The notes under the pieces are model-generated. The model saw only the letters and a program-made list of their open reading frames with translations. It was not told the DNA's origin and searched no databases. Of a DNA stretch of 64,000 nt, positions 399 through 58,236 are shown in pieces. Source of the stretch: Thermodesulfovibrionia bacterium (GTDB taxonomy: Bacteria; Nitrospirota; Thermodesulfovibrionia; UBA6902); contig CALZJD010000001.1 of assembly GCA_945787795.1 (NCBI GenBank), positions 5,776 through 69,775 on the forward strand, given 5' to 3'. Both the position numbers and the translations under genes were made by a program. Position 1 is the stretch's first letter. Each line of letters opens with the position of its first letter.

Positions 399-1385
399 TT
401 ACACATCTTCCAATAATTTTTTCAGATCATCTTTAGATTTAATAATTTCAGGAGGTTTAAAAACCGATTTAAGTGTATTATTAAATACATCAAGGATATA
501 AAAAGGAACGAAAGTCGCTATTTTCATAAAATATGTTTTCAATTGGAACCTTATAGAATAAGACCTCTTGAATATCTTTCTCGCATCTTTCATATGTCCC
601 CCTCTCAAATAAAAATATCCTAAGGAGTAAAGTCGGTGCGACAAGATATTCTTGAGCAGATCTTCAAGCTCTGAATTCCCTTCCGCCATTTTCAAATGTT
701 TCTCGATGACTCCATTAGAACGTTTTATAGTAGTTTCAACTTTCTTACTTCTTCCCTGAGACTGCTCCCGGTACAGTGAAAGCACCTCATCCAGAAAAAC
801 AATTTTATATTTCATCGCAATCCTTAACCACATGTCATGGTCTTCAATAAGTTCAAGAGACTCATCAAATAACCCTACATCATCAAAACATTTCTTTCTT
901 GCAATTACAGACTGATTCGGAATCATATTCCTCTTTAATAATTCTTTATAAATCCAACCCTCCGATCGTTTCCTTCTATACTTTTCAGGAAGTACCCAGA
1001 TCCCGTCATCATCAAACTTCCTTGCATCGGTGTAAACCAATCCCACTTCAGACGATTGTGTTTTAAAATAGGCAATCTGTTTCTCAAGTTTTTGAGGAAG
1101 CCACAAATCATCAGCGTCAATAAAAGCAATGTATTCTCCGGCAGCAGCCCTTATTCCAACGTTTCTCGCACTCCCGGGACCGCTGTTTTCCTTTAGAATG
1201 AGCCTTATTTTTTCAGGGTGCTTACCGCAATACTGCTTTATTATAGAAACAGTTTGGTCCGTGGAGCCATCATCAACTACAATTACCTCAAAATCAGAAT
1301 ATGTCTGTGTTAAAACTGAATCCAGTGTTTTGTCTATAAATTTACAGACATTATATGTTGGAATGATTACACTAACTTCAATCAT
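399..1385 (-). CDS. Glycosyltransferase family 2 (GT-A fold)
   Basis: 328-aa ORF with the motifs VSVIIPTYNVCKFIDKTLDSVLTQTY, FEVIVVDDGSTD and IAFIDADD (DxD). It shares an ATGA start/stop overlap with the upstream gene at 1382-1385. Confidence 0.9.
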   Translation of the reverse strand: MIEVSVIIPTYNVCKFIDKTLDSVLTQTYSDFEVIVVDDGSTDQTVSIIKQYCGKHPEKIRLILKENSGPGSARNVGIRAAAGEYIAFIDADDLWLPQKLEKQIAYFKTQSSEVGLVYTDARKFDDDGIWVLPEKYRRKRSEGWIYKELLKRNMIPNQSVIARKKCFDDVGLFDESLELIEDHDMWLRIAMKYKIVFLDEVLSLYREQSQGRSKKVETTIKRSNGVIEKHLKMAEGNSELEDLLKNILSHRLYSLGYFYLRGGHMKDARKIFKRSYSIRFQLKTYFMKIATFVPFYILDVFNNTLKSVFKPPEIIKSKDDLKKLLEDV

Positions 1386-2596
1386 TGACTGCCTCTTATT
1401 GCATTTTCACGATCCAGGATTTTACGGATATTCCTGGCCTTTCTGGCTTTAGAAAGATCAATTTTCCACTGGATAATTGCCTGGGGAGTGATTAACCTGT
1501 AAATAGTTCTCAACTTTTCAATAACCACAGGCCTGTAAAGGAATACCAGGGTTTTCAGGCTCGTGGTACCGGTTGCAACAGAAGCGCTGTTTTTGATTTC
1601 AACTCCCCAGCTATTCTTATGGTAAGTTACACCTCCGAGGAAGTCATATTCTTCACATTTATTGTTAATACAATACTGTAATATATATGTCCTAAGAATA
1701 TTTCCTACACCTTTCTTTTCCCAGTCTTTGTCATAGCCTTCCTGCAGGATAAACAATTTTTTATTATAGAGAAACCCATATTCATGGGCCCTGTAAACAT
1801 TGTCAACCTTCAGTGAAAAAATTAGTAGCCAGTTGTTTTCAATAAAGTGGTTGGATAATATCCGGTAAAAATCTCTCCGTTCCGGACAACTGAAGGTGCC
1901 CAGTCTCCCTTCTGCCTGCCATCTTTGCTGATGTGACTCCATTAAAGATTTTAAAACCGAGGGCATATCTTCTTTTTGAGAACAAACTTCAAACTCAACT
2001 TTATGATTTTCATTAAGCCTGCGGGGAAGAGATCGCAATTTTGTCCTCATTCTCGGTTTTAGGCTCGTGATATAGTCATCGAATATATCAGGCAGCTTAA
2101 TAAACGAACATCCATGAGAAGTTTCCTGTGATAACCATTTTCGTTCTCTGATTAGCTTTCTCATTACCGGAAGATATGGAGACACATCAGGGACTTCATA
2201 ATAGAAGAATATATCCCAATCCTTCCTTCTCTCATTGAGAATTTGTACCAGACCGATGCAAATATCTTCTTCCAAACCCTTCTCAGATATTATGTCCAGG
2301 TACTCGGACTCCTTAATGTTCATCTTGAGTCCCCAGAAATAAATGGCTTTATACTTAAATATATGGCCTAACTTGAGAACATTCAAAACTAATGGAGCTA
2401 TGCCGACCAGTTTTTCACGCCTGTCGCGAAAAACTATGATATACGGATCTTCAGTTGTCCTGTATGCCTGCCACCAAGCATCCAGCCACTCCCATGTCAG
2501 AAATACAGAATTGCTCTCACTTCTACTCAAAAGTGAATTCCACTCATCTCTCAGATTCAGGAACCCTTGATATTCTTTTATGATTTCATGTTTCAA
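1382..2596 (-). CDS. FemAB/CelD-like GNAT-fold transferase (PEP-CTERM-locus type)
   Basis: 404-aa ORF. The N-terminal region WNSLLSRSESNSVFLTWEWLDAWWQAY is typical of FemAB-related/CelD (BioF2-like acetyltransferase domain) proteins, which are marker genes of XrtA-type EPS loci. Confidence 0.7.
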   Translation of the reverse strand: MKHEIIKEYQGFLNLRDEWNSLLSRSESNSVFLTWEWLDAWWQAYRTTEDPYIIVFRDRREKLVGIAPLVLNVLKLGHIFKYKAIYFWGLKMNIKESEYLDIISEKGLEEDICIGLVQILNERRKDWDIFFYYEVPDVSPYLPVMRKLIRERKWLSQETSHGCSFIKLPDIFDDYITSLKPRMRTKLRSLPRRLNENHKVEFEVCSQKEDMPSVLKSLMESHQQRWQAEGRLGTFSCPERRDFYRILSNHFIENNWLLIFSLKVDNVYRAHEYGFLYNKKLFILQEGYDKDWEKKGVGNILRTYILQYCINNKCEEYDFLGGVTYHKNSWGVEIKNSASVATGTTSLKTLVFLYRPVVIEKLRTIYRLITPQAIIQWKIDLSKARKARNIRKILDRENAIRGSQ

Positions 2597-2616: not shown

Positions 2617-3564
2617 TTAATGGGGTTTAATTCTTAATTTCCCCTTCATATTCCCACAGATTGCTCCGGTAATTTGAACGATGGTATACAGTGGTGCAAC
2701 AACACGCAACTTTGTCTCTTTACCGATGATGAGTTTTATCAAGCGAAAGAAAAATCCAGCCAAATGAATAATGGAATCCCTTAATTTGCGGATAATATAC
2801 CATTTATATCGCGGTTTAATTTCAGGCAACATTCGGGAACGCCTATACCCGTCATAAGCGTATTTAATATGGACAGTAAAGAATTCTTTTATACTCCCTC
2901 TTGCCACATGATAAATGAGCGCTTCTTTCTGATAAACCGTTTTATAGCCCGACTCTTTCTCCATTCGCACATGAAATTCAGCGTCAGCTCCAGAAGTAAA
3001 TTGATTGTCATCATACCCTCCCGCATCAACAAATGCCTTGCGAAGAAATACATTATTCCCGCCGCCCCATGGCACATAAGGATTAACTCCAATATGACGT
3101 TCGATACTGCCAAATGTGTCTTTTGAGGCGTAATATCTCTGTGCAAGAGTGTTACCCTGCTCAACCATCGTCTTTCCGACAACACACCCGATATTATTCG
3201 ATGTAAAACCTGTCATAAGGTTCTTCAACCACTGAGGGGTAGCAAAACAGTCAGCATCTATATTTGCAACAAAATCGGTTTTGACAAATCTTATTGCAGC
3301 ATTTCTTGCTGCCGGCCATCCCTTTTTACCTTCAAAAAGATAATAAATATTACTATTTTTTTTTACATACTCTTTAATAATTTCAGCAGTTCTGTCTTTA
3401 GCATTATTATCTACTACAATGATTTCATAGTCCGGATAATCAAGTGACAACAGATCATTAAGACATCTCTCAATTGTTTTCTCGGAGTTGTATGCAGCTA
3501 CTACAACTGAAACCTTTGGAATGAAGGTATCAGCCTTTTCGTCTGTCCTGATTTTCAAATTCAC
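2617..3564 (-). CDS. Glycosyltransferase family 2
   Basis: 315-aa ORF with KVSVVVAAYNSEKTIERCLNDLLSLDYPDYEIIVVDNNAKD and NIDADC (DxD-like). Confidence 0.9.
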   Translation of the reverse strand: MNLKIRTDEKADTFIPKVSVVVAAYNSEKTIERCLNDLLSLDYPDYEIIVVDNNAKDRTAEIIKEYVKKNSNIYYLFEGKKGWPAARNAAIRFVKTDFVANIDADCFATPQWLKNLMTGFTSNNIGCVVGKTMVEQGNTLAQRYYASKDTFGSIERHIGVNPYVPWGGGNNVFLRKAFVDAGGYDDNQFTSGADAEFHVRMEKESGYKTVYQKEALIYHVARGSIKEFFTVHIKYAYDGYRRSRMLPEIKPRYKWYIIRKLRDSIIHLAGFFFRLIKLIIGKETKLRVVAPLYTIVQITGAICGNMKGKLRIKPH

Positions 3565-3651: not shown

Positions 3652-6234
3652 TTATTTTTTCACCAGGTAAACCTTCCCTTTTGTACCATCAACAGTGATT
3701 TGTTTCCCATCACTTATTGTCCTCGTTGCCGACTTAGTACCGATTACTGCCGGAATTCCATATTCTCTTGCAATGTTAGCCCCATGAGATAGGACTCCTC
3801 CATGATCAGTAACCAAGCCACCCGCTATAGTAAATAAAGGTGTCCAGAAAGGCCTTGTTGTCGGGCATACAAGGATTTCTCCTTTTTTGAGTCTTTCAAA
3901 TTGTTCCGGAGAGTATATTAACCGTGCTGTACCTGTAACAACTCCTCTGCTCCCGGCCAGGCCTGTAATAGAGCTTTTGTTCTCTGAATCTTTTCTTTCA
4001 TATTCTCTATGAGAGAAACTGATTATGCCAGGAGGAATCAGTCTCTTTTGTTTTTCAAATTCTTTCCTTCTTTCATTAACCGAATAAAAGAAATGTCCGT
4101 TGTCTCCATCTATCATCTCAGGGATTCTTTGAACCTCATAGAAACTAAATAAAAATATATCCTCTGCCTTAAGCAGCTTGCCCAGATCAACTAAACGCTT
4201 CCCGAGAAATAAGAGTGATTTCTTTATGAACCACGTTCCTGTGTAGAGATAGTGGTTGGAATCCTCTTTGAGTGGATAATACTTTTGGGCCAAACCTAAT
4301 ATTTCTGAAAATATTTTCTGCCTGACAGGAAATAATCTATCGATAACAGAAGAGGAGAGTTTATTTTTTATCGATTGAGCAATTTTCTCTCTTTCTATAA
4401 TCTTCTGGTTGTACTTTAATTCCATGTTACAATCATCAGGGCACTGAATATATTCTTTAATAATTGCTATCATTACAGAAGGGTCTTCTTCACAACCCGG
4501 ATCTTTGGGATTTGACCGGGCCCAGAGATAAGAGAAATCCTTTTTTAAGATGTTATTCATATGGATCAGAAACTTCTTCCCTTCCTCACTCTTTCTCAAT
4601 CTGGCATTTATGTCTTTAATAATGTTATGAGAAAATATTGATAATAGTTTTGCATCTCTTCTTACCATATTGGCCAACTCGGAAAGAATGCGATCTTTTT
4701 CTATACTTTTATTCTCAAAACCTTGAAACAGTATTGTATAATCCGTCTCCTGAGAAGGAATAAAGTATTCACATAACTTAACAAGTAATCCAGGGTAAAA
4801 ATTACAATAGAAATCATAAGGAACAGATTCTTTATGAAATTCAACATTTAAAAATACAATTTGGCTTACAGAGTCAACTAAAACCTCCACTGAATTGTTA
4901 TCATTCAAGGAATTGAAGATATCTGTCATATCCCCAAAATAATCACGGAGGATCCTTTGCTGCCATTCTCGATAGATCCTCCTGCCCATATAGAATTGAT
5001 ATATTTTGGACCATATTATTGTTAACCATCTCAGAGGGGGTGGGGAATATATCCACTCTTTATTTACATAGATATAGCCATTAATAATGCGATGATGGAA
5101 TAAAAACCTTTTTTTTGTTATCTTTACAAGTGCATTGCGATACATATCTTTCTTTAAATAATCGAAACTTCTGCCAAATGGAGAGAAAGGAGCATGACCA
5201 TAGGCCAGACTCCAATCCCTTTTTTTGTCTTCATCGTTCTCCCAGGTGAAAGGAAAATAGTCAGGCAGCGAAGTTATAGGACGTACCTGTAATATAAAAA
5301 ACTTACCGCTTTTAAAAGCCCATTCAATATCCTGAGGTCCTCCGTAAAATTGCATTATCAGAATGCTGAGTTTACAAAGCTCTGCAACTTTATCATCTTC
5401 AAGTGACTGTAATTTCTGTTTACTTACAGGCACGTCTGTTTCAGATATACCATGTCTATTATCGTCAGCAGGTACAATCATTGTCTTTTTCTCTGCAATT
5501 TGCTTTTCTTTTAACTCAAGGTTCTCTTCATTAATTACAAACCGGTCAGGAGTTACTATGCCGGATGCAACCGATTCACCAAGACCCCAACTGGAATTGA
5601 TAACTATCTCAAACGGATTGCCTGAAATAGGATTAGCTGTAAAAAGTACCCCTGCGACGTCAGCATTAATCATCTGTTGTATTACGACTGACATGAATCC
5701 GTCCAAGTAATTTAGACGATGGTTAGCCATATAGACCAAATTGTTTTCCGTCCAAAGAGAAGCCCAGCACATTTTTATTTTATGATTGATATTAGCTAAT
5801 CCAGAAACATTCAAGTACGTATCATACAGACCGGCAAAACTGGCATCCGAAAGGTCCTCCATGGTTGCGGAAGATCTCACGGAAACAGATACATTATTAA
5901 CATTAAGTCGATCACACAACTTCTGATATGCATCCTCGACTTCCTGAAGTATTTCATCCGGGATTTCTGCTGTTAAGAATTGTTCTCTGATTTGTGCAGT
6001 ATTCGCTTTGACATGTTTAAGATTATTAAAGTCTGTCTTTGACATTATATCGATCATTTTATGACGTATTCCTGTATTATTTACATAACATTTATATGCT
6101 TCTGTCGTTATACAATAAAAATCCGGGACAGGTATACCTTTAGACAGAAGCTCACCAAGATTGGCTCCTTTTGTACCGATAACATCTCTGTCTTTACTGG
6201 TAATTTCATCCAGCCATTTTATGAACTTTGACAT
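3652..6234 (-). CDS. PEP synthase/PPDK-like ATP-grasp plus C-terminal swivel-His phosphotransferase (RPH/Cj1418-like architecture, no PEP/pyruvate TIM barrel)
   Basis: 860-aa ORF. The N-terminus DRDVIGTKGANLGELLSKGIPVPDFYCITTEAY is the PPDK_N ATP-grasp signature. The extreme C-terminus GEILVCPTTRPFWTPLFTIAGGLVTDHGGVLSHGANIAREYGIPAVIG is the PEP-utilising mobile domain with its phospho-His. About 400 aa of unassigned sequence lie between them, and nothing follows the His domain. Confidence 0.8.
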   Translation of the reverse strand: MSKFIKWLDEITSKDRDVIGTKGANLGELLSKGIPVPDFYCITTEAYKCYVNNTGIRHKMIDIMSKTDFNNLKHVKANTAQIREQFLTAEIPDEILQEVEDAYQKLCDRLNVNNVSVSVRSSATMEDLSDASFAGLYDTYLNVSGLANINHKIKMCWASLWTENNLVYMANHRLNYLDGFMSVVIQQMINADVAGVLFTANPISGNPFEIVINSSWGLGESVASGIVTPDRFVINEENLELKEKQIAEKKTMIVPADDNRHGISETDVPVSKQKLQSLEDDKVAELCKLSILIMQFYGGPQDIEWAFKSGKFFILQVRPITSLPDYFPFTWENDEDKKRDWSLAYGHAPFSPFGRSFDYLKKDMYRNALVKITKKRFLFHHRIINGYIYVNKEWIYSPPPLRWLTIIWSKIYQFYMGRRIYREWQQRILRDYFGDMTDIFNSLNDNNSVEVLVDSVSQIVFLNVEFHKESVPYDFYCNFYPGLLVKLCEYFIPSQETDYTILFQGFENKSIEKDRILSELANMVRRDAKLLSIFSHNIIKDINARLRKSEEGKKFLIHMNNILKKDFSYLWARSNPKDPGCEEDPSVMIAIIKEYIQCPDDCNMELKYNQKIIEREKIAQSIKNKLSSSVIDRLFPVRQKIFSEILGLAQKYYPLKEDSNHYLYTGTWFIKKSLLFLGKRLVDLGKLLKAEDIFLFSFYEVQRIPEMIDGDNGHFFYSVNERRKEFEKQKRLIPPGIISFSHREYERKDSENKSSITGLAGSRGVVTGTARLIYSPEQFERLKKGEILVCPTTRPFWTPLFTIAGGLVTDHGGVLSHGANIAREYGIPAVIGTKSATRTISDGKQITVDGTKGKVYLVKK

Positions 6235-6326
6235 TAGTTATATCCTGATGACTTTCAGATCTTTACTACGAATAATGAAGTATATAAAGAGACATGAACT
6301 AAATTGAAAGAAATCTATAATTATTA

Positions 6327-6477
6327 GAACCTATCTCAAAATTAAAGATGTTGTTCCTGTCATACCCGCAGGTCGTAAGCGGGTATCCAGAAAGCCTTGA
6401 AAAGCCAGGATTCCCCGATCAGGTCGGAGAATGACATTGGATGTTTTTATCATAAAAGCATATTTTGAGATAGGTTC
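6327..6477. repeat. Nested inverted-repeat (MITE/REP-like) element in the asnB to ppsA-like spacer
   Basis: A perfect 16-bp inverted repeat, GAACCTATCTCAAAAT (6327-6342) and ATTTTGAGATAGGTTC (6462-6477), flanks a GC-richer core. The core has termini TGTCAT (6358-6363) and GAATGACA (6429-6436) and an inner hairpin ATACCCGC-N9-GCGGGTAT. Confidence 0.7.
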
Positions 6478-6572
6478 CTGTTATTCATTCATCTTTATAG
6501 TCTTCTATAATATTGATGTCTCCTAATTAATCATTAAGACTTTTAAGGCTAATGACACTTTTTATATTACTT

Positions 6573-8441
6573 TTAATTTATATATTTTAAATGCCAGAGT
6601 TCCAGACATATCAACGCCCAGATTTGATCACTGAAATCATACCGGCTGCTGCTGTGCTCCTTCAAAAGGTTTTCAATATAGGACATATTAAAATATTCCC
6701 TCTCCCTGGCAGCCGATGACAGCAAGATATCTGCAGTAAACTCCTTCAATTGACCCCTGAACCAGATATGCTTTGGGATGGCAAACCCCCTCTTTTCGCG
6801 GTCAATTATATTCTGTGGTATTACCCCCCTGATCATTTCTTTAAGGATGTGCTTGGTGCGGCCGTATGGCATCTTGTAGCGATCAGGAATGGTTCCGGCA
6901 AATTCCACTATGCGGTAATCGAGAAAAGGTGCCCTTGTTTCTAAAGAAACAGCCATACTCGCACGGTCAACCTTTGTCAGGATCGTATCTGTCAAATACA
7001 TCTTCATATCTGTATACTGTCTTCTACTGATATCCGATGCCTTGTCAAATTCATTAAAATAATCTCTCAGCCATTCCAACGGCATATCATGGTTATTCAT
7101 CTTCTGTTTGATATTTTTTGAATAAAGTAATGCCTTCTTTTCAGCATTAAAATAATTGATTTTACTGGAATAATAATCAAATGCGTCTCCTGAGGCGGAC
7201 TTCAACAGCTTTGCGCCTTTCAGGCCCGATGGTACATATGCTGATAGTTTGTTAATTACCTTTAATCTCAATGCCTCTGGGACAGACTGTATCGCTTTTG
7301 CGAGCGGAGGATCTAAGTATCTTTTATATCCTGCAAAGAGCTCGTCTCCACCGTCACCGGACAGTGCTACTGTTACCTTGGAACGAGCCAGCTTTGAAAC
7401 ATAATAAGTCGGGATTGCAGATGAATCCGCAAAAGGCTCGTCTAAAAACCATACCAGTTCAGGGAGCAGCTGTGTCATTTCAGGATTTACAATCATCTCG
7501 TAATGGTTTGTTCCCAGGAGATCAGCAACCTCTCTGGCATAAGGGAGCTCGCTGTAATTTTCTTCTTCAAAACCGATAGTGAATGTCTTAATGTCTTTGA
7601 CTCCGATCTGCGCCATTGCCGCTACTACGATACTGGAATCAACCCCCCCGCTCAAAAAAGCCCCGAGCGGCACATCGCTGATCATTCGTTTTTTCACTGA
7701 ATCGAGAAACAGCTCTCTCAATGTATCTATATAGTAACTTTCTCCCTTATCTTCAGAAGCATTGCCAAATTCCAGACACCAATATGGTGAAACATCAATT
7801 GAATTATTCTTATAAACGAGACTATGCCCGGCAGGCAATTTATTAACACCTTCAAAAAAGGCCAGGTCTCCGGGTACACAGCCAAATGATAAATAATAGT
7901 CCATTGCCTTCAGGTTGATTTCTCTTTTAAAGTTCGGAACAGAGAGCATGGATTTCAACTCGGAAGCAATAATCAATCTCTTTCCGTCAAAGGCATAATA
8001 AAGAGGTTTTTTGCCCAACCTGTCCCGTGCCAATACCAGTAGTTCTTCAGTATCGTCCCAGATGGCGACAGCAAACATGCCGTTTAAGCGCTTGAAACAA
8101 TCAACCCCCTCGTCTTCGTATAAATGAACGATTACTTCCGTGTCACTGTGAGTGTAAAATTCGTGTCCCTTATTAATCAGTTCTGCCCTCAGTTCAGGAA
8201 AATTATAAATTTCACCATTAAATACCAGCCATATGGTTTTATCCTCGTTATGGATCGGTTGATGCCCTGTTACCAGGTCAATTATGCTTAACCTGCGCAT
8301 TCCCAGTCCAATCCGCTCAGAGATATAATATCCTGCATCATCGGGACCCCGATGAACAATTGCTTCACACATTGAATGTATTACAGATTCTGAAACACGT
8401 TCATTTCTATTACAATGCAATATTCCTGCAATACCACACAT
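6573..8441 (-). CDS. asnB: Asparagine synthase-family glutamine amidotransferase (paralog 1)
   Basis: 622-aa ORF. It has an MCGIAGIL N-terminal Cys nucleophile (Ntn class II GATase), an RGPDD motif and an LSGGVDSS PP-loop. Confidence 0.9.
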   Translation of the reverse strand: MCGIAGILHCNRNERVSESVIHSMCEAIVHRGPDDAGYYISERIGLGMRRLSIIDLVTGHQPIHNEDKTIWLVFNGEIYNFPELRAELINKGHEFYTHSDTEVIVHLYEDEGVDCFKRLNGMFAVAIWDDTEELLVLARDRLGKKPLYYAFDGKRLIIASELKSMLSVPNFKREINLKAMDYYLSFGCVPGDLAFFEGVNKLPAGHSLVYKNNSIDVSPYWCLEFGNASEDKGESYYIDTLRELFLDSVKKRMISDVPLGAFLSGGVDSSIVVAAMAQIGVKDIKTFTIGFEEENYSELPYAREVADLLGTNHYEMIVNPEMTQLLPELVWFLDEPFADSSAIPTYYVSKLARSKVTVALSGDGGDELFAGYKRYLDPPLAKAIQSVPEALRLKVINKLSAYVPSGLKGAKLLKSASGDAFDYYSSKINYFNAEKKALLYSKNIKQKMNNHDMPLEWLRDYFNEFDKASDISRRQYTDMKMYLTDTILTKVDRASMAVSLETRAPFLDYRIVEFAGTIPDRYKMPYGRTKHILKEMIRGVIPQNIIDREKRGFAIPKHIWFRGQLKEFTADILLSSAAREREYFNMSYIENLLKEHSSSRYDFSDQIWALICLELWHLKYIN

Positions 8442-8442
8442 G

Positions 8443-9480
8443 CTAATTCTTTCTATCTCTTGCGATCAGGCCAGCCGCCAGGAGTACAATAAGGGTTAAG
8501 TTAAAAATCAGCATACCAATTTTTATTAAGAAAGCAGGTATCTCCTGTTTAAAATAAAAAGCCGGGGTCTTTTGATCCACCCAGTTCAGATAATAGTTCT
8601 TTGTTTCTTCACCGGTTGTATGAACGTGGTCACCGTTTGTCAAAAAATCATTACGAAAAATCACCTGAAAATGGGTAAAATATTCTTTTAATTCTGCCTC
8701 CGGCAAAAAACGTTTTTCATTAAATGAATCCAGGGGATATAACTTTCCTTCTTTTACGACCTTCACATCTTCTGTCTTACCATTAACATAAGCCCGATGT
8801 ACTTCCAGAGTTGTTGCAGGTTTATTTTTATATAAATAATAAATATTAACGGTAGGGTCGAACAGTATCCATTTCTTCAGTTCATTCAACCATACTTCTA
8901 TCACATAATGTCCCAGATAGCCTTTGCTTTGACTCGATGTCGACTGCAAGTGGATAAGTCTGGCATTTCTTCCCAAACTCAGGCTCGCCGTCATCATAGC
9001 TTTTGATATGGAACCGCACCAGAACTTTCCGCCCTTCAGGACATCCTTTGTCAGGTCCAGATAACTATCATACCTCCCCCTGGATGCTGTAAACTTAGCA
9101 GATGCATACTGAGTTTTTTCGTAAATCCGATTCGTTAACCTGAGCGCAAGGTCAAAATCATTTTTATAACCTTTCACTGCATCATAAACCTGTTCTCTGA
9201 TCGACTCCAATCCCTCTGCGCCAGGGCTTTCAAATATAAAGGGGGCGGGTAATGTTGTCTCATCGACATGCCACTTTTTCGGGCAATCGAGGCAGTCTCC
9301 ATTTTCATAATGAACCGGCCAATAAAGATCTCCTTCTTTCTCTGTATCCATTTTAACATCCCTTCCTAAAGGAGCATTTGCAACCTTGTATGCCAAAAAG
9401 ATTTCAGCGACCATTAACATGACAAGCACCACAGCACTCGATATCCGGTATTGTTTAATGGCAATAAATATTTTTTTCAT
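8443..9480 (-). CDS. Membrane-anchored transglutaminase-like (Cys-His-Asp) protein
   Basis: 345-aa ORF with an N-terminal TM segment (ISSAVVLVMLMVAEIFLAY) and a C-terminal TM segment (LIKIGMLIFNLTLIVLLAAGLI). The core GKFWCGSISKAM...GRNARLIHL...GHYVIEVWLNELKKWILFDPT matches the transglutaminase-core C / H / D spacing. A 1-nt gap separates it from asnB downstream. Confidence 0.65.
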   Translation of the reverse strand: MKKIFIAIKQYRISSAVVLVMLMVAEIFLAYKVANAPLGRDVKMDTEKEGDLYWPVHYENGDCLDCPKKWHVDETTLPAPFIFESPGAEGLESIREQVYDAVKGYKNDFDLALRLTNRIYEKTQYASAKFTASRGRYDSYLDLTKDVLKGGKFWCGSISKAMMTASLSLGRNARLIHLQSTSSQSKGYLGHYVIEVWLNELKKWILFDPTVNIYYLYKNKPATTLEVHRAYVNGKTEDVKVVKEGKLYPLDSFNEKRFLPEAELKEYFTHFQVIFRNDFLTNGDHVHTTGEETKNYYLNWVDQKTPAFYFKQEIPAFLIKIGMLIFNLTLIVLLAAGLIARDRKN

Positions 9481-52655: not shown

Positions 52656-53738
52656 TTATTCTAACTCCTCTTTTTTTTGACCTTTATTGTCTTGCTCTTT
52701 TTTAACTTGTATTTTTTTGAATTTTGAAACCCGGGCTGAAAGGTCATCCAACATGTCATCGTCCACAATTTTCACCATTACTCTATATACCATTTTTTCT
52801 ACAAGCCTTTCGAACACCTCTAATATCTTTTCGCTTTCGCTGAGTAATTCTTCCGAAATTCTGCTATGCTCCAGGTCATCTGTTAACGTGTTATGATTTG
52901 TAGCTAAACCACGATTTGAATCATTCCAGTAGTCATATGCTTTCAGGTCTTTTGAGACTTCTAAAATAATATTAAACCCTACTTCTTTCTCACCCTTAGT
53001 AAACGCACATAGCAATGCAAAATCAGATAAGATATTAATAAGTCTGGGAATTCCCCTGCTGAAATCATAAATAATCTGGAGCATATCATCTGTGAGCTTA
53101 ATTGCATCAGCATTCCCTGCAACCGTTAAGCGATACTTTATATATTCAGAAGTTTCATCAATAGATAAAGGTGTGATGTGATAGTTAATGTTAATACGCT
53201 GTTTTAATTGTAGCAATTCAGGAAGCATGAGCATGTTCTTCAATTCCGGTTGTCCTACGAGAATAATCTGGATCAGTTTTGATTTGTCTGTTTCAAGGTT
53301 TGAGAGAAGCCTTATCTCTTCAAGGAGATCGGACGAAAGATTTTGTGCTTCATCAATTAAAAGTATCGGCTGATTTCCGCTGACATACTGATCTATCAAA
53401 AAATCATTCAATTCGCTAAATAATATTGTTTTGTTCTTCCCTTCAACTATTAAGCCAAAATCTTTGTTAATCATGGAAATGAGTTGTTCAGATGAGACTT
53501 TCGTATAATTAATTCGTGACAGTTTTATTGATCCGTTAAGGTTTTTAATGAGATTTCTGACAATAGTTGTTTTTCCTGAACCAACCTCACCAGAAAGCAA
53601 AATAAAGCCGATCTTTGCCTTTATTCCATAGTCCAGATAAGATATGGCCTTTTTATGTGTTGTGCTTGGAAAAAGAAAATCCGGATTAGGCACTAACTCA
53701 AAGGGTTTGCATTTGAATGAGAAATGATTTTCGTACAT
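52656..53738 (-). CDS. ExeA-like AAA ATPase, PEP-CTERM-locus type
   Basis: MYENHFSFKCKPFELVPNPDFLFPSTTHKKAISYLDYGI...ILLSGEVGSGKTT (Walker A) and ILLIDEAQNL (Walker B). I prefer the start at 53738, where AGGTGAT lies 5 nt upstream. The track ORF starts at the GTG at 53747. Confidence 0.85.
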   Translation of the reverse strand: MYENHFSFKCKPFELVPNPDFLFPSTTHKKAISYLDYGIKAKIGFILLSGEVGSGKTTIVRNLIKNLNGSIKLSRINYTKVSSEQLISMINKDFGLIVEGKNKTILFSELNDFLIDQYVSGNQPILLIDEAQNLSSDLLEEIRLLSNLETDKSKLIQIILVGQPELKNMLMLPELLQLKQRININYHITPLSIDETSEYIKYRLTVAGNADAIKLTDDMLQIIYDFSRGIPRLINILSDFALLCAFTKGEKEVGFNIILEVSKDLKAYDYWNDSNRGLATNHNTLTDDLEHSRISEELLSESEKILEVFERLVEKMVYRVMVKIVDDDMLDDLSARVSKFKKIQVKKEQDNKGQKKEELE

Positions 53739-53743
53739 TTGTA

Positions 53744-55018
53744 TCACCTAAACATCACTGTGGCCTGCAGCCACGTAATATTATTTATATAATCATCACT
53801 CACAATATCTGATTTTCTTACGTCATACCTGTATGCAGCGCCTGTTGTAATATGCCGTCCTAAAATGTAATTTATGCTGCTTCCTGCTCCATATCGATGA
53901 ACTTTTCCGTCTTCATTTCCACCAGAAAACTCCTGCTTTTCCCACTGTCCGTTTAGTGATACATCTATTCTTTTTGATACGGAACGTGATATATCAATAG
54001 CAACACCAGCAATTTCATCTTCTCTGTCAGAGTCCAGATATTCATCAATAGTATAGTAGGAATTTACGGTCAATTTAATTGTTTTTCCCGTTTCAACATT
54101 AATATCAACTCTATGACTTTTAAATAACCCTGACGTAGGTGAATCATTAAAATGAATACCGTAGTTGAATCCTACCGATGTATTTTCTGTTATCTTAAAA
54201 ATATTGTCGGTCCCAATATTCCAAATAAATTCTCGAATGTTATCAACATCTTGATAGTTAAACCATGCAACTCCCAGTGAACCATTGATCGTGACAGACG
54301 GTGTAATTCGATAATCCATTTTAGCAGAAGCCTCATGCCTGTCATACTTCGCTTCTGCAACATTACTACCTTCACCATTCAGATCAGGACGATAAGTATA
54401 ATATTCGTAATGTACTGCTCCATTTATTTTCGGTGAAAACTTTTTATCTAATGTTAAAAATGCAGAATGAGTATCAGAGTTGACTAAAGAAGGATCCCTG
54501 TACCATATGTTTGTGTAGCTATAACCAATTGTTGTAGAAATAGTATCCGTGAAAGGCAATATCATATTAGGAGATGCCGTAAATACATTCCTGTCTGTCA
54601 AATTCAGAAATAAATTTTCGGGACTTGTAGGGTTTCTTATATCTACCGGAACACGTTCATACGTGTCCGAGATATTAATATAAAATCGACTTGATGGTTT
54701 AATCATAGTTTGAAAATTCAGACGTTGAGCCTCGTTCAGGTCCGTATCATTGAGATTAGTGTTTTCACTGTAGAATGTGAAATTCAGTCCATAATCAAGA
54801 TCGAAATTAATGGTTCTATACGGAGAATACTTAAGTACAATTTTCGGATTAATAGTAGTTATAAAATCATCTGTTCTGCCAGTCTCGGTTAAAAATATAT
54901 TGTCATTATATTCTTCCTTTACACTTATACTGGGATTTAATGAAAATTCCGCAAACGATGGAGCGCAAATGAATATTATCATTACCGGTAAGAGTCCAAA
55001 ATAAATCACCTTTCTCAT
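53744..55018 (-). CDS. Outer-membrane beta-barrel protein, PEP-CTERM-locus associated
   Basis: 424-aa ORF with the signal peptide MRKVIYFGLLPVMIIFICAPSFA. It has an alternating-hydrophobicity, Tyr/Asn/Thr-rich strand pattern throughout and sits between the kinase and ATPase genes, as in XrtA loci. Confidence 0.7.
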   Translation of the reverse strand: MRKVIYFGLLPVMIIFICAPSFAEFSLNPSISVKEEYNDNIFLTETGRTDDFITTINPKIVLKYSPYRTINFDLDYGLNFTFYSENTNLNDTDLNEAQRLNFQTMIKPSSRFYINISDTYERVPVDIRNPTSPENLFLNLTDRNVFTASPNMILPFTDTISTTIGYSYTNIWYRDPSLVNSDTHSAFLTLDKKFSPKINGAVHYEYYTYRPDLNGEGSNVAEAKYDRHEASAKMDYRITPSVTINGSLGVAWFNYQDVDNIREFIWNIGTDNIFKITENTSVGFNYGIHFNDSPTSGLFKSHRVDINVETGKTIKLTVNSYYTIDEYLDSDREDEIAGVAIDISRSVSKRIDVSLNGQWEKQEFSGGNEDGKVHRYGAGSSINYILGRHITTGAAYRYDVRKSDIVSDDYINNITWLQATVMFR

Positions 55019-55827
55019 TCTTTCGCATCTCGATTATATCCTGTATATTTGTAACCATAACGATAATAAGGTGTATGAAAGCTACCCGCGCTTGCATCAT
55101 TATATACAACACCCAATATATTCGAAGCCTTAATCATGTGCAAGGCCTCTTCAATTGTTTTTTTCTGCGCATGTGCCTCCCTGATAACGAAAACAATTCC
55201 ATCTACATAAGAGGCTATTGTAATTCCCTCTGCAAAAGGCAGGATTGGAGGCGTGTCAATAATAATATATCTGTCCATATATTTTTGCTTAAACTCTTTA
55301 ATAAGTGATTGCATTTTCTGAGAAGAGAGTAATTCTACGGGATTCTCCACTTGATTGCCTGCCGGAATAAAGACAAGATTGCCAATGCCTGTTTTTATTA
55401 TAATATCTGAAATATCAATATCCCGGGATAAATACTCAGAAAGCCCATATTTATATTCGATTCCGAGATATTTGTGTAAAGTAGGCTTCCTTAGATCTGC
55501 ATCCACCAAAATGACCGAATGGTCAATGTCATGGGCAATTGATACTGCTAGATTTACTGATGTGTTAGATTTACCTTCATTATCAATAGCACTGGTAATC
55601 ATGATAGTATTATGGAAATCTGTCTTTGTTTCCCGGATTAATATTGACTTAAATCTCCTGTACTCCTCAGCAATAGCGGAATGAGGATCGGTTATTGTTA
55701 CCAAACAGGGATTGACAATTTCTTTTCGTTCAATCCTGTTGATGATTTTCAGTTTTTTTCTGCCATCTTCAGTAGTATTTGCCATTAATTTACCTGCTAT
55801 ATCCAGTGCCTTCTCAATTTCGCTCAT
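55015..55827 (-). CDS. BY-type protein tyrosine kinase (stand-alone cytoplasmic domain)
   Basis: 270-aa ORF with Walker A ITSAIDNEGKSNTS, Walker A' VILVDADLRKP, Walker B YIIIDTPP and the C-terminal Tyr cluster PYYRYGYKYTGY. Confidence 0.9.
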   Translation of the reverse strand: MSEIEKALDIAGKLMANTTEDGRKKLKIINRIERKEIVNPCLVTITDPHSAIAEEYRRFKSILIRETKTDFHNTIMITSAIDNEGKSNTSVNLAVSIAHDIDHSVILVDADLRKPTLHKYLGIEYKYGLSEYLSRDIDISDIIIKTGIGNLVFIPAGNQVENPVELLSSQKMQSLIKEFKQKYMDRYIIIDTPPILPFAEGITIASYVDGIVFVIREAHAQKKTIEEALHMIKASNILGVVYNDASAGSFHTPYYRYGYKYTGYNRDAKE

Positions 55828-55844
55828 GCTATCTCCTTACAGAT

Positions 55845-57404
55845 TTATAGATAGTGATTTACAAAGCTGCTATGTATGAATTCTTCAACATATGTAAGAC
55901 CTAAATATTCCATTACAAGGACCCCCAAAATGCACAACATATACACTCCTGCAAAACTATAAAGAAGGATATCTTTTTTCTTTCTTTTTATAATCGTCTC
56001 TGAGCTTTGTATCTTGGGTATTATTGCAAGAACCGGTAATCCGAATGTCTTAAGGACATCAGAAGTTTTAACAGAATTATCTATATAATCAAGCAGGAAA
56101 ATGACCCCAAAAGATACTATGAAACCAAATATAATGCCGGTCAAAATCATCCTTACTCTGCTTGGAGTGATTGGTATTGATGGCATAATAGCAGGCTCAA
56201 TAATTCTGAAAGTAGTAGCCTTATCTTCTATCTCCATTTGTTTTGATACCTCAGACTGGCCGAGTCTTGCCAGTAATTGTTGATATACACTTCGGAAAGA
56301 ATCTCTTTCTTTTTCCAGATCAGCCAGTTTTTTTCTGTTCTCAGGTATAACCCTCAATTCCTTTTTTTTATTCCTGATCAACGTGTTCAAATGATCGTTC
56401 TTTGCATTAAATGCGATAATTTCTGTTTCTACTTCAGCAAGTCTTTGTTTTAATCTTTGATACACAGGATTTGCGGCGCTGATTTCTGTATCTCTCTCGT
56501 TGTTAACATAATCTTCGGGACTATTGTTGTTCTGGTTTTTTAAAACTTCTATTTCGGCTTTCAGTTTAATAATATCCGGATAGTTTTCCGTATATCTGAC
56601 GAGCAATTGTTTGATTCTGTTTTCAAGAGATTCTATCGTTTTCTTAATTTCGCTTGTACTGTACATGGCAACAGTAAAGGGGTCTTCATTGCTTAACTGT
56701 GCTTCGATGCTTTTCTTTCTTGCAATCAATTCTTTCTTCTGTATCTCTATTGTACTAATCTCTTCCAAATGATTCTTTATCTCATTAATAATAGAGCCTT
56801 CATCCGTTGCTATATAGATCCCCTGTTCCTGCCTGAATTTAATTACCTCATCTTCTCCTTTGTCCATCTTTCCTTTAAAAAAAGCGACTTGCTTTTCCAG
56901 GAACTTAGTGGCATTATATGCCTCCTCCCTCTTTGCAAAAATGTTTTTCTCAAGGTATTCATTGACAAGATTATTAATATAATTCTTGGCAAGCGCTGGA
57001 TCGCGATGTATAAAGGACACGGTGATAAGACTGTTATTCCTTATTTTTATATCCGTCTTATTCTGAAACGAATTAATCATTCTTTCTAAGTCTTCACTAT
57101 TATTTGCATGTATATCCAAATCAAGGTTACGTAGCACATTCAGGACAAGACTTCTACCAAGCATAGTATCTCTAAGCACTCTGATTCTCTCATCCATTGA
57201 AGGCGTAATTGCAATACCTTCAACAAGTCGATGTATGACATTTCGCTCAATAAATATAGTGCTCTTTGCTTCATATTCCTTAGGCATAAAATAGCTATAG
57301 CAAGTAATTATGGACATAATAAAAAGAGACAAAGGGACAAAGAGATATCTCTTCTTAATAATCAGTTTCAGATATCTGAGTATTTCCGAATATGGCTGTT
57401 CCAT
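55845..57404 (-). CDS. Polysaccharide chain-length determinant (Wzz/PCP family, PEP-CTERM-locus type)
   Basis: I prefer the start at 57404 (MEQPYSEILRYLKLI...), which is preceded by GAAGGAGAGAAA. The protein has an N-terminal TM segment, a long coiled-coil periplasmic region and a C-terminal TM segment. The track ORF start at 57446 overlaps the upstream gene. Confidence 0.85.
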   Translation of the reverse strand: MEQPYSEILRYLKLIIKKRYLFVPLSLFIMSIITCYSYFMPKEYEAKSTIFIERNVIHRLVEGIAITPSMDERIRVLRDTMLGRSLVLNVLRNLDLDIHANNSEDLERMINSFQNKTDIKIRNNSLITVSFIHRDPALAKNYINNLVNEYLEKNIFAKREEAYNATKFLEKQVAFFKGKMDKGEDEVIKFRQEQGIYIATDEGSIINEIKNHLEEISTIEIQKKELIARKKSIEAQLSNEDPFTVAMYSTSEIKKTIESLENRIKQLLVRYTENYPDIIKLKAEIEVLKNQNNNSPEDYVNNERDTEISAANPVYQRLKQRLAEVETEIIAFNAKNDHLNTLIRNKKKELRVIPENRKKLADLEKERDSFRSVYQQLLARLGQSEVSKQMEIEDKATTFRIIEPAIMPSIPITPSRVRMILTGIIFGFIVSFGVIFLLDYIDNSVKTSDVLKTFGLPVLAIIPKIQSSETIIKRKKKDILLYSFAGVYMLCILGVLVMEYLGLTYVEEFIHSSFVNHYL

Positions 57405-57423
57405 TTTCTCTCCTTCATATTCT

Positions 57424-58236
57424 TTAAAATAAGCTTTCATTGACAATTACAATATCATTGGGCATCATCATTACATTCTCGCTTAAATTACCCTTCATGA
57501 GATTTTTTGCCTTTACCGATATTTCTATCCTTTCCGCATCACCATTTTTTCTAAAAATCTTTACACTATTTTTGTTTGCAAATTCGGTAAATCCACCAAC
57601 AGCAAGAATAACATCCAGAATTGTGTGACCCTCACTGTACTTAATAGTAGTCGGATTATTTACAGCACCAAGTATAGTTATCCGTTTATCAAAGTTGTCA
57701 GGGATAAACAGGGTGTCATTCGGATTCAAAGTAATATCCTGACTGTAATTCCCCTTTTCAAAGAGGGAAGAAAAATCAGTCATTATCTTCTTTTTATCTC
57801 TCAATAAATATGCGTTTTTCAGATCAGCATCTTGAAAGGGTCCAATCTGTGCAAGCAACTCCAGCAGTGTTGTTTGTCTCGTAAGTGTTATGACTCCTGT
57901 TTTCACTCCCGTGCCTATAAGAAATATTCTAGAATTTGTCATGTTTGTAACTATCACAGTGACAATTGGTGTTTTAACTATTGTCTTCATTTCTCGTTCT
58001 AGCAATTTTTTCAACTCCAATGGGGTCAATCCTGATGCCCTAATCTCGCCCATTGCAGGAATTGATATCTTGCCGTCAGGTCTGACTGTACTTGATAAGC
58101 TCAGCTCCGGGATTCCCCAAACAGAAACATTAAGAGAGTCGCCTTCTCCAATAACATAATCTCCTGAAAAGACATATAGTGGAATCAAAACGAATACAAT
58201 CATCAAACTGAATATAGTTTTAACAAACTTCATCAT
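57424..58236 (-). CDS. Polysaccharide export protein (Wza-like; Poly_export plus SLBB domains)
   Basis: 270-aa ORF with a signal peptide, YVIGEGDSLNVSVWGIPELS (Poly_export motif) and SLBB-like repeats. An ATGA overlap links it to the upstream transferase gene. Confidence 0.85.
   Translation of the reverse strand: MMKFVKTIFSLMIVFVLIPLYVFSGDYVIGEGDSLNVSVWGIPELSLSSTVRPDGKISIPAMGEIRASGLTPLELKKLLEREMKTIVKTPIVTVIVTNMTNSRIFLIGTGVKTGVITLTRQTTLLELLAQIGPFQDADLKNAYLLRDKKKIMTDFSSLFEKGNYSQDITLNPNDTLFIPDNFDKRITILGAVNNPTTIKYSEGHTILDVILAVGGFTEFANKNSVKIFRKNGDAERIEISVKAKNLMKGNLSENVMMMPNDIVIVNESLF

What the first reader, a model, noticed from the sequence alone, without database searches (positions are those of the whole stretch)
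3652..6234. Rifampin-phosphotransferase / Cj1418-like swivel-His kinase in an EPS operon
**Seen in sequence.** An ATP-grasp PPDK_N signature lies at the N-terminus. The phospho-histidine mobile domain (TDHGGVLSHGANIAREYGIP) lies at the extreme C-terminus. About 400 unassigned residues sit between them, and there is no PEP/pyruvate TIM barrel. The protein therefore cannot be a true PEP synthase.

**Established knowledge.** This domain order is that of rifampin phosphotransferase. A PPDK/PpsA-related enzyme, the Campylobacter jejuni L-glutamine kinase Cj1418, starts the O-methyl-phosphoramidate capsule decoration.

**Inference.** The central domain probably binds a novel acceptor (sugar, amino acid or lipid-linked glycan), giving a phospho- or phosphoramidate-type decoration of this polysaccharide. 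An AsnB and a transglutaminase-like protein lie immediately upstream.
Basis: partly seen in the sequence, partly recalled or inferred. Interest (0 to 1): 0.7.

Follow-up and report, generated by a model that had tools for sequence, protein, structure and literature searches.

The report
Rifampin-kinase-like dikinase in exopolysaccharide locus
This gene encodes an intact three-domain "swivelling-histidine" kinase of the rifampin-phosphotransferase family whose substrate-binding middle domain belongs to a rare branch found almost only inside bacterial polysaccharide-building gene clusters, so it probably phosphorylates a still-unknown component of a slime polysaccharide.

Summary
Window 3652-6234 (-) encodes an 860-aa protein with a PPDK_N ATP-grasp domain (aa 17-323), a phospho-histidine swivel domain at the C-terminus (aa 783-853, His817) and no PEP/pyruvate TIM barrel. 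The middle ~460 residues are not an unknown fold. They are a diverged homolog of the rifampin-binding domain of RPH: the family profile aligns RPH-Lm end to end, and the isolated domain matches only RPH structures. Residues needed for both phosphotransfers are kept (K22, R120, T139, E304, K656-E657, H817), but rifampin contacts and all curated cut-offs (RPH, PpsA, PigC/RedH) fail. The gene lies in a ~62-kb co-directional XrtA/PEP-CTERM exopolysaccharide locus, probably from an uncultured Nitrospirota bacterium. It sits in a five-gene module, AsnB-kinase-GT2-FemAB-like GNAT-GT2, conserved at 61-73% identity on three metagenomic contigs. The central-domain clade is rare: 6 clusters at E<=1e-30 among 1.84 billion. 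In 8 of 9 independent contexts it sits in glycan-assembly loci, against 0 of 2 broad-family controls. The most likely function is an ATP -> AMP + Pi dikinase acting on an EPS precursor or substituent. The acceptor is unknown. The Cj1418/phosphoramidate idea is not supported, because no partner genes are present.

The parts
3652..6234 (-). Gene for the 860-aa RPH-family His-swivel dikinase (includes the stop codon)
   Evidence: ORF listing and translation. Identical to protein P0001 from an NCBI record on a 70.6-kb contig.
5266..6186 (-). ATP-grasp nucleotide-binding domain (aa 17-323), with K22 (6169-6171), R120 (5875-5877), T139 (5818-5820) and E304 (5323-5325)
   Evidence: Pfam PPDK_N E 1.9e-98. 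These residues align with RPH-Lm K22/R117/T136/E297 and are invariant or nearly so in 50 homologs. Their roles in RPH are described in PMC4844700.
3889..5265 (-). Central acceptor-binding domain (aa 324-782), a diverged RIF-binding-domain fold. Clade motifs: FSPFGRS (aa 350-356), INGYIY (384-389), NPKDPGC (575-581), YYPLKEDSNHY (652-662). K656-E657 (4264-4269) is equivalent to the RPH R666-E667 dyad.
   Evidence: No local Pfam hit. The family profile aligns RPH-Lm end to end, E 6e-197. The domain-only AF2 model matches only RPH-Lm in the PDB, TM 0.53-0.60. Dyad mapping, motifs.
3676..3888 (-). Phospho-histidine swivel domain (aa 783-853). Catalytic His817 codon at 3784-3786.
   Evidence: Pfam PEP-utilizers E 2.5e-23. 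The His is invariant in 50 homologs and aligns with RPH-Lm His825.
6573..8441 (-). AsnB-type glutamine amidotransferase, first gene of the conserved module
   Evidence: Pfam Asn_synthase + GATase_7. TIGR03108 'XrtA/PEP-CTERM system amidotransferase' scores 632 bits, below its 817 cut-off. Its ortholog lies upstream of the kinase in L001 and L002 at 72-73% identity.
6235..6572 (-). 338-bp spacer between AsnB and the kinase, with a terminator-like hairpin plus T-run (6410-6432), a second hairpin and a promoter-like site (6312-6339)
   Evidence: The counts are no higher than in shuffled sequence, so this is only a hint of a separate transcription start. No Rfam match.
2617..3564 (-). GT2 glycosyltransferase, 87 bp downstream of the kinase
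   Evidence: Pfam. Ortholog downstream of the kinase in L001, L002 and L003 at 61-71% identity.
1382..2596 (-). FemAB-like GNAT (Acetyltransf_6)
   Evidence: Pfam E 6.7e-23. Ortholog in L001 at 61% identity in the same order.
399..1385 (-). Second GT2 glycosyltransferase, overlapping the GNAT stop codon by 4 nt
   Evidence: Pfam. Ortholog in L001 at 65% identity.
8443..9480 (-). Transglutaminase-core protein upstream of AsnB
   Evidence: Pfam Transglut_core E 1.9e-6, 28.5 bits against a 23-bit cut-off.
52656..62401 (-). Core XrtA/PEP-CTERM EPS genes that define the locus: PrsT, EpsB_2 priming transferase, export protein, chain-length determinant, tyrosine autokinase, outer-membrane protein and ATPase
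   Evidence: All seven pass NCBIfam curated cut-offs. The XrtA-system deacetylase at 24776-25624 also passes.

Best explanation
The gene encodes a soluble cytoplasmic dikinase of the rifampin-phosphotransferase (RPH) family. Shown by homology: the ATP-grasp domain binds ATP; His817 on the C-terminal swivel domain takes the beta-phosphate, releasing AMP and Pi; the swivel domain then docks on the helical central domain, where the K656-E657 dyad (RPH R666-E667) positions phospho-His for transfer to an acceptor. Inferred: the acceptor is not rifampin or pyruvate but a building block of the exopolysaccharide made by this XrtA/PEP-CTERM locus. The most likely candidate is a hydroxyl on a sugar of a nucleotide-sugar or undecaprenyl-PP-linked repeat unit, or on a side-chain substituent installed by the co-conserved AsnB, GT2 and FemAB-like GNAT genes. 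The acceptor would be phosphorylated on the cytoplasmic face before Wzx flipping and Wzy polymerisation, giving an anionic phospho-substituent. This branch of the family, defined by its central domain, appears to be dedicated to glycan-assembly loci.
For: Domain order and lack of a TIM barrel. Full-length structural match to RPH-Lm (Foldseek E 2.6e-43). The profile aligns RPH-Lm end to end at E 6e-197. The isolated central domain matches only RPH-Lm (TM 0.53-0.60, RMSD 3.4-4.5 A; every other hit E>0.4). All residues that PMC4844700 shows are needed for the two half-reactions are present. There is no transmembrane segment or signal peptide. The locus is XrtA/PEP-CTERM EPS. The AsnB-kinase-GT2-GNAT-GT2 module is conserved at 61-73% identity on three metagenomic contigs. 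Central-domain relatives at only 24-29% identity sit next to Wzx, Wzy, GT2/GT4, methyltransferase, FemAB-like, AsnB, CapK, deacetylase and sulfotransferase genes in 7 further independent contigs. Two broad-family members lie among housekeeping genes. In one relative the kinase overlaps the start of a purple-acid-phosphatase-like gene, and another lies next to a NAGPA phosphodiester glycosidase, both pointing to phosphoester chemistry. The clade proteins are near-neutral to basic (net charge -5 to +21), against -26 and -47 for two of the three broad-family proteins compared; the third, P0028, is -3, inside the clade's range. This is weakly compatible with anionic or membrane-proximal substrates.
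Against: No acceptor has been identified and nothing here measures activity. Gene neighbourhood is the only link to the polysaccharide. Most contexts are short metagenomic contigs, and there are only two controls. The 338-bp spacer with a terminator-like hairpin means co-transcription with AsnB is not established. One clade member (P0125) is not in an obvious glycan locus. All characterised family members act on small molecules (rifampin, bipyrrole aldehyde, phenols, L-glutamine), not on glycans or lipid-linked intermediates. The dyad is K-E rather than R-E, and RPH Lys670 is Asn660 here.
Confidence: 0.55

Rival explanations
1. Activation rather than decoration, as in PigC/HapC. The dikinase phosphorylates a carbonyl, carboxyl or hydroxyl oxygen of an EPS precursor only to make a leaving group, and a neighbouring enzyme (FemAB-like GNAT, AsnB or a GT) then displaces the phosphate. 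The finished polymer would carry an amide, ester or ether substituent and no phosphate.
For: PigC, RedH and HapC share this architecture, and their proposed mechanism uses the phospho-intermediate for condensation (PMC13534948). Amide- and ester-forming genes (AsnB, Acetyltransf_6, CapK) recur beside clade members.
Against: The PigC and RedH models score 394-417 bits against cut-offs of 1300-1350. The AsnB neighbour has its own complete adenylating synthetase domain and so does not need external activation. No specific partner is universally adjacent.
Confidence: 0.2
2. A Cj1418-type amide-N kinase. The enzyme phosphorylates L-glutamine or another amide nitrogen to start a phosphoramidate (MeOPN-like) modification of the polysaccharide.
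For: From my own knowledge, Cj1418 is a PPDK/PpsA-related His kinase in a capsule locus; its pathway role is cited in PMC6429109 and PMC11800397. A glutamine-using AsnB is adjacent. SAM methyltransferases are present in the locus and lie directly upstream of the kinase in three relatives.
Against: No cytidylyltransferase, class-I glutamine amidohydrolase or CysC-like kinase is present in the 64-kb window. Similarity to NF004508/PRK05849 is weak (E 1e-21, partial), against 1e-118 for the RPH model. AsnB genes are generic in XrtA loci, with three copies here.
Confidence: 0.07
3. A small-molecule kinase unrelated to the polysaccharide, such as a detoxifying, antibiotic-modifying or metabolite kinase, that merely sits in a variable, horizontally exchanged part of the locus.
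For: Characterised relatives act on antibiotics or phenolics. The locus has mosaic GC content. A possible own promoter and an upstream terminator-like hairpin are present.
Against: Relatives at 24-29% identity recur in unrelated glycan loci, with different neighbours but the same theme. The tight five-gene module is conserved. The RPH equivalog scores 398 bits against a 999 cut-off, identity to RPH-Lm is about 25% against more than 42% for validated clade A, and the rifampin-contact positions are gapped or changed.
Confidence: 0.13
4. A true PEP synthase (pyruvate, water dikinase), as automatic annotation of relatives states.
For: Source names such as 'pyruvate,water dikinase'. Strong N-terminal similarity to PpsA structures.
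Against: There is no PEP/pyruvate-binding TIM barrel. The His domain is C-terminal rather than central. The PpsA equivalogs score 416-436 bits against cut-offs of 598-740, and only the two termini align.
Confidence: 0.01

Closest known systems
Rifampin phosphotransferase RPH-Lm (Listeria monocytogenes; PDB 5FBS/5FBT/5FBU/5HV1) and the wider 'small-molecule dikinase' family described in PMC4844700
   Same: Same three-domain order: ATP-grasp, helical substrate-binding domain, C-terminal His swivel domain. It is the best structural match both for the full length and for the isolated central domain. ATP-site residues, the catalytic His and the basic-Glu dyad of the second site are conserved. It fits that paper's description of distant clades, which keep the catalytic dyad but lose the rifampin-binding residues.
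   Different: About 25% identity overall and 16-19% in the central domain. Rifampin-contact residues are not conserved. It fails the RPH equivalog cut-off (398 against 999 bits). The dyad is K-E rather than R-E, and RPH Lys670 is Asn here. The genomic setting is an exopolysaccharide locus, not a stand-alone resistance gene.
Cj1418 L-glutamine kinase of the Campylobacter jejuni O-methyl-phosphoramidate capsule pathway
   Same: A PPDK/PpsA-related histidine-dependent kinase encoded in a surface-polysaccharide locus, whose product ends up as a phosphorus-containing decoration (PMC6429109, PMC11800397; the domain architecture is from my own knowledge).
   Different: Its pathway partners Cj1415-1417 are absent from the window. 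Similarity to the model I believe covers Cj1418 (NF004508) is weak and partial. Cj1418 works on free L-glutamine in an ABC-transporter-type capsule system, whereas this is a Wzx/Wzy XrtA-type EPS locus.
PigC / RedH / HapC prodiginine-condensing enzymes
   Same: Same three-domain architecture and His-swivel phosphotransfer. Comparable partial scores in NCBIfam (E 1e-117 to 1e-124). Mechanism in PMC13534948.
   Different: Far below the curated cut-offs. No prodiginine genes nearby. In those enzymes the phosphate is a transient activating group, not a final substituent.
Two-component phenolic dikinases: phenylphosphate synthase PpsAB, CreHI, HpeHI
   Same: Homologous ATP-grasp component (HpeI, PDB 9GOJ, is a top structural hit) and a homologous substrate-binding plus swivel component. 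Many distant hits of the central domain are ~550-aa proteins of this split type (PMC12167813).
   Different: Those are split into two polypeptides and act on phenols in catabolic clusters. This protein is fused and lies in a biosynthetic glycan locus.
Plant and algal glucan, water dikinase (GWD)
   Same: The one established case of a His-pivot dikinase (ATP -> AMP + Pi) that phosphorylates a polysaccharide (PMC13553574). It is a functional precedent for a glycan acceptor.
   Different: From my own knowledge, GWD has a different domain order and carbohydrate-binding modules. No sequence relationship beyond the shared nucleotide-binding and His domains was tested here.

Membership tests
RPH-like small-molecule dikinase family (PMC4844700) | Domain order: N-terminal ATP-grasp, central helical substrate-binding domain, C-terminal phospho-His swivel domain | tested here: met
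   Pfam positions; full-length Foldseek and profile alignment to RPH-Lm.
RPH-like small-molecule dikinase family (PMC4844700) | Catalytic His in the T/S-x-x-G-G-x-x-x-H motif, and the ATP-site residues Lys22, Arg117 and Thr136 | tested here: met
   H817 in TDHGGVLSH; K22, R120 and T139. The motif definition is in PMC12167813.
RPH-like small-molecule dikinase family (PMC4844700) | Arg-Glu (and Lys) block 9 of the second active site | tested here: met
   K656-E657 align with R666-E667, a conservative R-to-K change also present in the three closest homologs in A1 (P0002-P0004), while all four subfamily relatives at 24-29% identity that carry a basic residue here have Arg. The Lys670 position is Asn660, so the third residue is not kept.
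RPH-like small-molecule dikinase family (PMC4844700) | Central domain with the RIF-binding-domain fold | tested here: met
   The domain-only model (pLDDT 72) hits only RPH-Lm entries: E 6e-6 to 5.5e-4, TM 0.53-0.60.
Rifamycin-inactivating phosphotransferase sensu stricto (RPH clade A; NCBIfam NF041857 / NF000283) | Score above the curated equivalog cut-off, and more than 42% identity to RPH-Lm | tested here: not met
   398 bits against 999, and 281 bits against 1700. About 25% identity. The clade A criterion is in PMC4844700.
Rifamycin-inactivating phosphotransferase sensu stricto (RPH clade A; NCBIfam NF041857 / NF000283) | Conservation of the rifampin-contact residues (Gln337, Tyr351, Val368, Gly527 region) | tested here: not met
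   Those positions are gapped or substituted in the query.
PEP synthase / PPDK | C-terminal PEP/pyruvate-binding TIM barrel with a centrally placed His domain | tested here: not met
   No PEP-utilizers_C hit at E<=1. The PpsA equivalogs fall below their cut-offs and align only at the termini. No TIM-barrel structural match.
Cj1418 L-glutamine kinase / MeOPN pathway | Co-occurrence with Cj1416-type cytidylyltransferase, Cj1417-type amidohydrolase and Cj1415-type kinase genes | tested here: not met
   None was found among the ORFs scanned across the 64-kb window, which were all of those >=100 aa on the minus (coding) strand. The rest of the genome is not available.
Cj1418 L-glutamine kinase / MeOPN pathway | Sequence membership in the Cj1418 family | tested here: inconclusive
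   Only a weak partial hit to NF004508/PRK05849 (E 1e-21, far below the 501-bit cut-off).
Cj1418 L-glutamine kinase / MeOPN pathway | ATP-dependent N-phosphorylation of L-glutamine | not testable with these tools
   Needs an enzyme assay.
PigC/RedH prodiginine ligases | Score above the curated equivalog cut-off, and a prodiginine gene cluster | tested here: not met
   394-417 bits against 1300-1350. No pig or red genes in the window.
XrtA/PEP-CTERM exopolysaccharide locus (context) | Presence of the system's marker genes above curated cut-offs | tested here: met
   PrsT, the TIGR03013 priming transferase, export protein, chain-length determinant, tyrosine autokinase, TIGR03016 outer-membrane protein, TIGR03015 ATPase and TIGR03006 deacetylase all pass.
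XrtA/PEP-CTERM exopolysaccharide locus (context) | Exosortase XrtA gene itself | tested here: inconclusive
   No ORF in the window matched an exosortase model. Two ORFs have no family at all (36428-37912 and 49381-50214). The gene may lie outside the window.

The most novel reading that the evidence does not exclude
This clade could be a previously unrecognised class of bacterial glycan dikinase: a GWD-like enzyme recruited from the RPH family that phosphorylates a lipid-linked repeat unit or finished sugar residue of Wzx/Wzy-type exopolysaccharides. In some loci, working with the adjacent methyltransferase or AsnB-type amidotransferase, it might yield O-methyl-phosphate or phosphoramidate decorations by a route different from the Campylobacter CDP-phosphoramidate pathway.
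Probability: 0.12. Interest if true: 0.8.

Novelty: new variant of a known kind. Interest (0 to 1): 0.5.

Why it matters
PMC4844700 described RPH-type dikinases as a large family whose substrates are mostly unknown. The substrates known so far are an antibiotic, pigment precursors, phenols and, for the more distantly related Cj1418, free glutamine. A branch of the family that is consistently embedded in polysaccharide-assembly loci would add glycan biosynthesis to that list. It would also point to a new source of negative charge or reactive handles on environmental biofilm and floc polysaccharides (XrtA/PEP-CTERM systems), whose chemistry is almost entirely unknown. In practice it gives a defined five-gene module and a set of catalytic residues that can be tested directly. 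It also corrects the misleading automatic annotations 'PEP synthase' and 'rifampicin phosphotransferase'.

Tried and rejected
1. True PEP synthase: rejected, because there is no TIM barrel and the domain order is wrong.
2. Rifampin-resistance RPH: rejected on cut-offs, identity and contact residues.
3. MeOPN-type pathway: I looked for partner genes across the whole window and found none.
4. Genome scan of GTDB species representatives with central-domain patterns: no relative found. The clade therefore seems to be absent from those representative genomes, and I could not get organism names for it.
5. The JGI metagenome scan gave only two extra loci.
6. Two searches of the large protein database with the central-domain profile or fragment returned nothing, although known members exist. 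I treat this as a tool limitation, not as evidence.
7. The look-up of the query's own source contig failed, and the cluster look-up gave no accession or name.
8. The promoter/terminator scan around the gene found no more sites than in shuffled sequence. Rfam found nothing.
9. The literature searches I ran found no paper reporting a PpsA- or RPH-like gene in PEP-CTERM or other EPS loci. The two primary Cj1418 papers were not held.
10. Hydropathy check: no membrane segment.
11. Numbering caveat: alignment A1 and model m54a1bde10967 lack Met1 because I trimmed the wrong end of the minus-strand reference. All residue numbers in this report are true numbers, verified.
Full report
**Observation.** Window 3652-6234 on the minus strand is a single 860-codon ORF with an ATG start preceded by AGGA. 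Pfam finds PPDK_N at aa 17-323 (E 1.9e-98) and the PEP-utilizers mobile domain at aa 783-853 (E 2.5e-23). Nothing else scores at E<=1, including the PEP/pyruvate TIM barrel. The quoted C-terminal peptide is present. The phospho-carrier residue is His817, the H of 'SHG', not the His of 'TDHGG'. AsnB (6573-8441) and a transglutaminase-core protein (8443-9480) lie directly upstream.

**What the middle domain is.** The central region is not an orphan fold. NCBIfam's best partial hits are the PRK06241 'PEP synthase' subfamilies, RedH/PigC and the RPH equivalog. All fall far below their cut-offs, and only the termini align. A profile of 50 full-length homologs aligns *Listeria* RPH-Lm end to end (E 6e-197). 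An AlphaFold model of the whole protein (pLDDT 82.5) has RPH-Lm as its best PDB match over its full length (E 2.6e-43, ~25% identity). A separate model of aa 325-760 alone (pLDDT 72) matches only the six RPH-Lm entries (TM 0.53-0.60, RMSD 3.4-4.5 A). Every other PDB hit has E>0.4, and none is a TIM barrel. The precomputed annotation also carries a weak Pfam PF27448 'Rph_4th' hit.

**Catalytic competence.** PMC4844700 shows which RPH-Lm residues are needed:
- His825 as the phosphate carrier.
- Arg666-Glu667, with Lys670 close by, for the second transfer.

Adding RPH-Lm to the family alignment maps these residues to K22, R120, T139, E304 (the Mg site), H817 and K656-E657. The Lys670 position is N660. 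The rifampin-contact positions are gapped or changed. This matches that paper's description of distant clades, which keep general phosphotransferase chemistry but have diverged in substrate. The protein has no hydrophobic segment or signal peptide, so it should act in the cytoplasm.

**Genomic setting.** Every gene called in the 64 kb lies on the minus strand. The distal 52.6-62.4 kb encodes PrsT, the TIGR03013 priming transferase, the export protein, the chain-length determinant, the tyrosine autokinase, the TIGR03016 outer-membrane protein and the TIGR03015 ATPase. All of these pass curated XrtA/PEP-CTERM cut-offs, as does the XrtA-system deacetylase at 24776-25624. Between those genes lie GT2 and GT4 transferases, two flippases, a Wzy-like polymerase, four methyltransferases, WecB, a NodU-like carbamoyltransferase and two more AsnB paralogs. 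The priming transferase is closest to uncultured Nitrospirota groundwater MAGs at 61-64% identity, which suggests the source organism. No cytidylyltransferase, class-I amidohydrolase or CysC-like kinase, the partners of Cj1418, is present.

**How specific the association is.**
- The full-length protein has only three close relatives (61-62% identity, all metagenomic). After that comes a large pool at about 30% identity.
- Searching 1.84 billion cluster representatives with the central domain alone gave 379 hits at E<=1e-3, 54 at E<=1e-10 and 6 at E<=1e-30.
- A pattern scan of 185,579 GTDB species genomes found no member.
- The close relatives keep the same gene order. AsnB-kinase-GT2-FemAB-like GNAT-GT2 is conserved at 61-73% identity.
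- Relatives at only 24-29% central-domain identity lie as follows:

| Relative | Neighbouring genes |
|---|---|
| P0022 | Between a methyltransferase and an AsnB, in a locus with Wzy, GT4, sulfotransferase and DUF3473 deacetylase genes |
| L004, L005 | Between a GT4/deacetylase and Wzx-Wzy |
| P0121 | After four FemAB-like genes, DegT and a GT4-deacetylase; before Wzx |
| P0122 | After GT4-CapK-GT4 |
| P0123 | After GT2-GT2-methyltransferase; overlaps the start of a purple-acid-phosphatase-like gene |
| P0124 | Between a methyltransferase and Wzy, with AsnB and CapK nearby |
| P0125 | The only exception: three B12-radical-SAM genes and a NAGPA phosphodiester glycosidase |

- Two broad-family controls, P0028 and P0064, lie among housekeeping genes.
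- That makes 8 of 9 contexts in glycan loci against 0 of 2 controls. The numbers are small, but the pattern is consistent.

**Mechanism.**
- Shown by homology: a two-step dikinase reaction in which ATP gives AMP + Pi, the beta-phosphate passes to His817, and then to an acceptor held by the central domain.
- Inferred from context: the acceptor is a component of the exopolysaccharide repeat unit or one of its substituents, modified in the cytoplasm before flipping.
- Not determined: whether the phosphate remains as an anionic decoration (my preferred reading), or is a transient activating group that a neighbouring amide- or ester-forming enzyme displaces, as proposed for PigC/HapC (PMC13534948).
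- The phosphoramidate idea is the weakest option, because the partner genes are absent and AsnB genes are generic in these loci.
- The 338-bp spacer upstream of the kinase carries a hairpin with a T-run and a promoter-like site. Such sites are no more frequent there than in shuffled sequence, so operon structure with AsnB is open. Rfam finds nothing.

**Comparison with known systems and novelty.**
- The protein passes every structural and catalytic test I could apply for the RPH-like small-molecule dikinase family.
- It fails the tests for RPH proper, PpsA/PPDK and PigC/RedH, and the MeOPN context test.
- Characterised relatives act on rifampin, bipyrrole aldehydes, phenols (PpsAB, CreHI, HpeHI; PMC12167813) or, for the more distantly related Cj1418, free glutamine. 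Glucan, water dikinase is the only known polysaccharide-phosphorylating dikinase (PMC13553574).
- The literature searches I ran found no report of an RPH- or PpsA-like gene as a component of PEP-CTERM or other EPS loci.
- I therefore rate this as a new variant of a known kind: a rare clade, associated with glycan loci, of an already recognised but largely uncharacterised enzyme family.
- Interest is moderate (0.5). The family's substrate diversity is expected, but a glycan-directed branch would be a real addition and is directly testable.

Noticed in passing
window 6573-8441, 40781-42724, 44600-46480: The locus holds three AsnB-type glutamine amidotransferase paralogs. The two that were scanned against NCBIfam (6573-8441 and 40781-42724) hit the 'XrtA/PEP-CTERM system amidotransferase' model (TIGR03108) at 575-632 bits, below its 817-bit cut-off. 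The third (44600-46480) was scanned against Pfam only. This suggests several distinct amidation steps in the polymer.
   Followed up: partly
window 1-64000 (family-less ORFs 36428-37912 and 49381-50214): Eight XrtA/PEP-CTERM system markers pass curated cut-offs, but no exosortase (XrtA) gene was recognised in the window. Two sizeable ORFs match no Pfam or NCBIfam family.
   Followed up: partly
window 0-24 kb, 28-32 kb and 34-50 kb: GC content is mosaic: 0.36-0.39, then 0.33, then 0.43-0.46. The locus also has two flippase genes (16614-18098 and 29807-31276). This suggests it was assembled from exchangeable modules, with the kinase module in a low-GC part.
   Followed up: no
window 37909-39696 and 46502-48178: A NodU-like carbamoyltransferase and a glycerol-3-phosphate-oxidase-like FAD protein (DAO + DAO_C) are embedded in the EPS locus. 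They hint at O-carbamoyl and glycerol-derived substituents.
   Followed up: no
window 6235-6572: The 338-bp AsnB-kinase spacer contains two GC-rich hairpins (6410-6432, followed by a T-run, and about 6365-6395) and a promoter-like site at 6312-6339. There is no Rfam match, and the counts are not above those in shuffled sequence.
   Followed up: partly
proteins P0005-P0039: The best-scoring relatives outside the close clade are ~1400-aa proteins, mostly from Anaerolineales/Chloroflexota. They carry about 540 extra residues with no Pfam annotation, fused to the same three-domain kinase.
   Followed up: no
L010 3275-7737; L007 736-10791: In one relative the kinase stop overlaps the start of a 681-aa purple-acid-phosphatase-like metallophosphoesterase. 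In another, the kinase is flanked by three B12-binding radical-SAM genes and a NAGPA (GlcNAc-1-phosphodiester glycosidase) homolog.
   Followed up: no
L006 491-7632: A clade member's locus carries four FemAB-like Acetyltransf_6 genes plus a DegT aminotransferase upstream of the kinase. This suggests amino-acid or peptide side chains on an amino sugar in that polysaccharide.
   Followed up: no
window 23466-24935 and 24776-25624: The mechanical WecB ORF is 489 aa, but the epimerase domain covers only aa 201-477. The ORF also overlaps the upstream deacetylase gene by 160 nt, so its true start is probably further downstream.
   Followed up: no
window 26445-29150: A 901-aa protein with DUF5060, a collagen-binding-like domain and fibronectin-III domains sits between the two halves of the EPS locus. 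It may be a glycan-processing or depolymerase-type enzyme.
   Followed up: no
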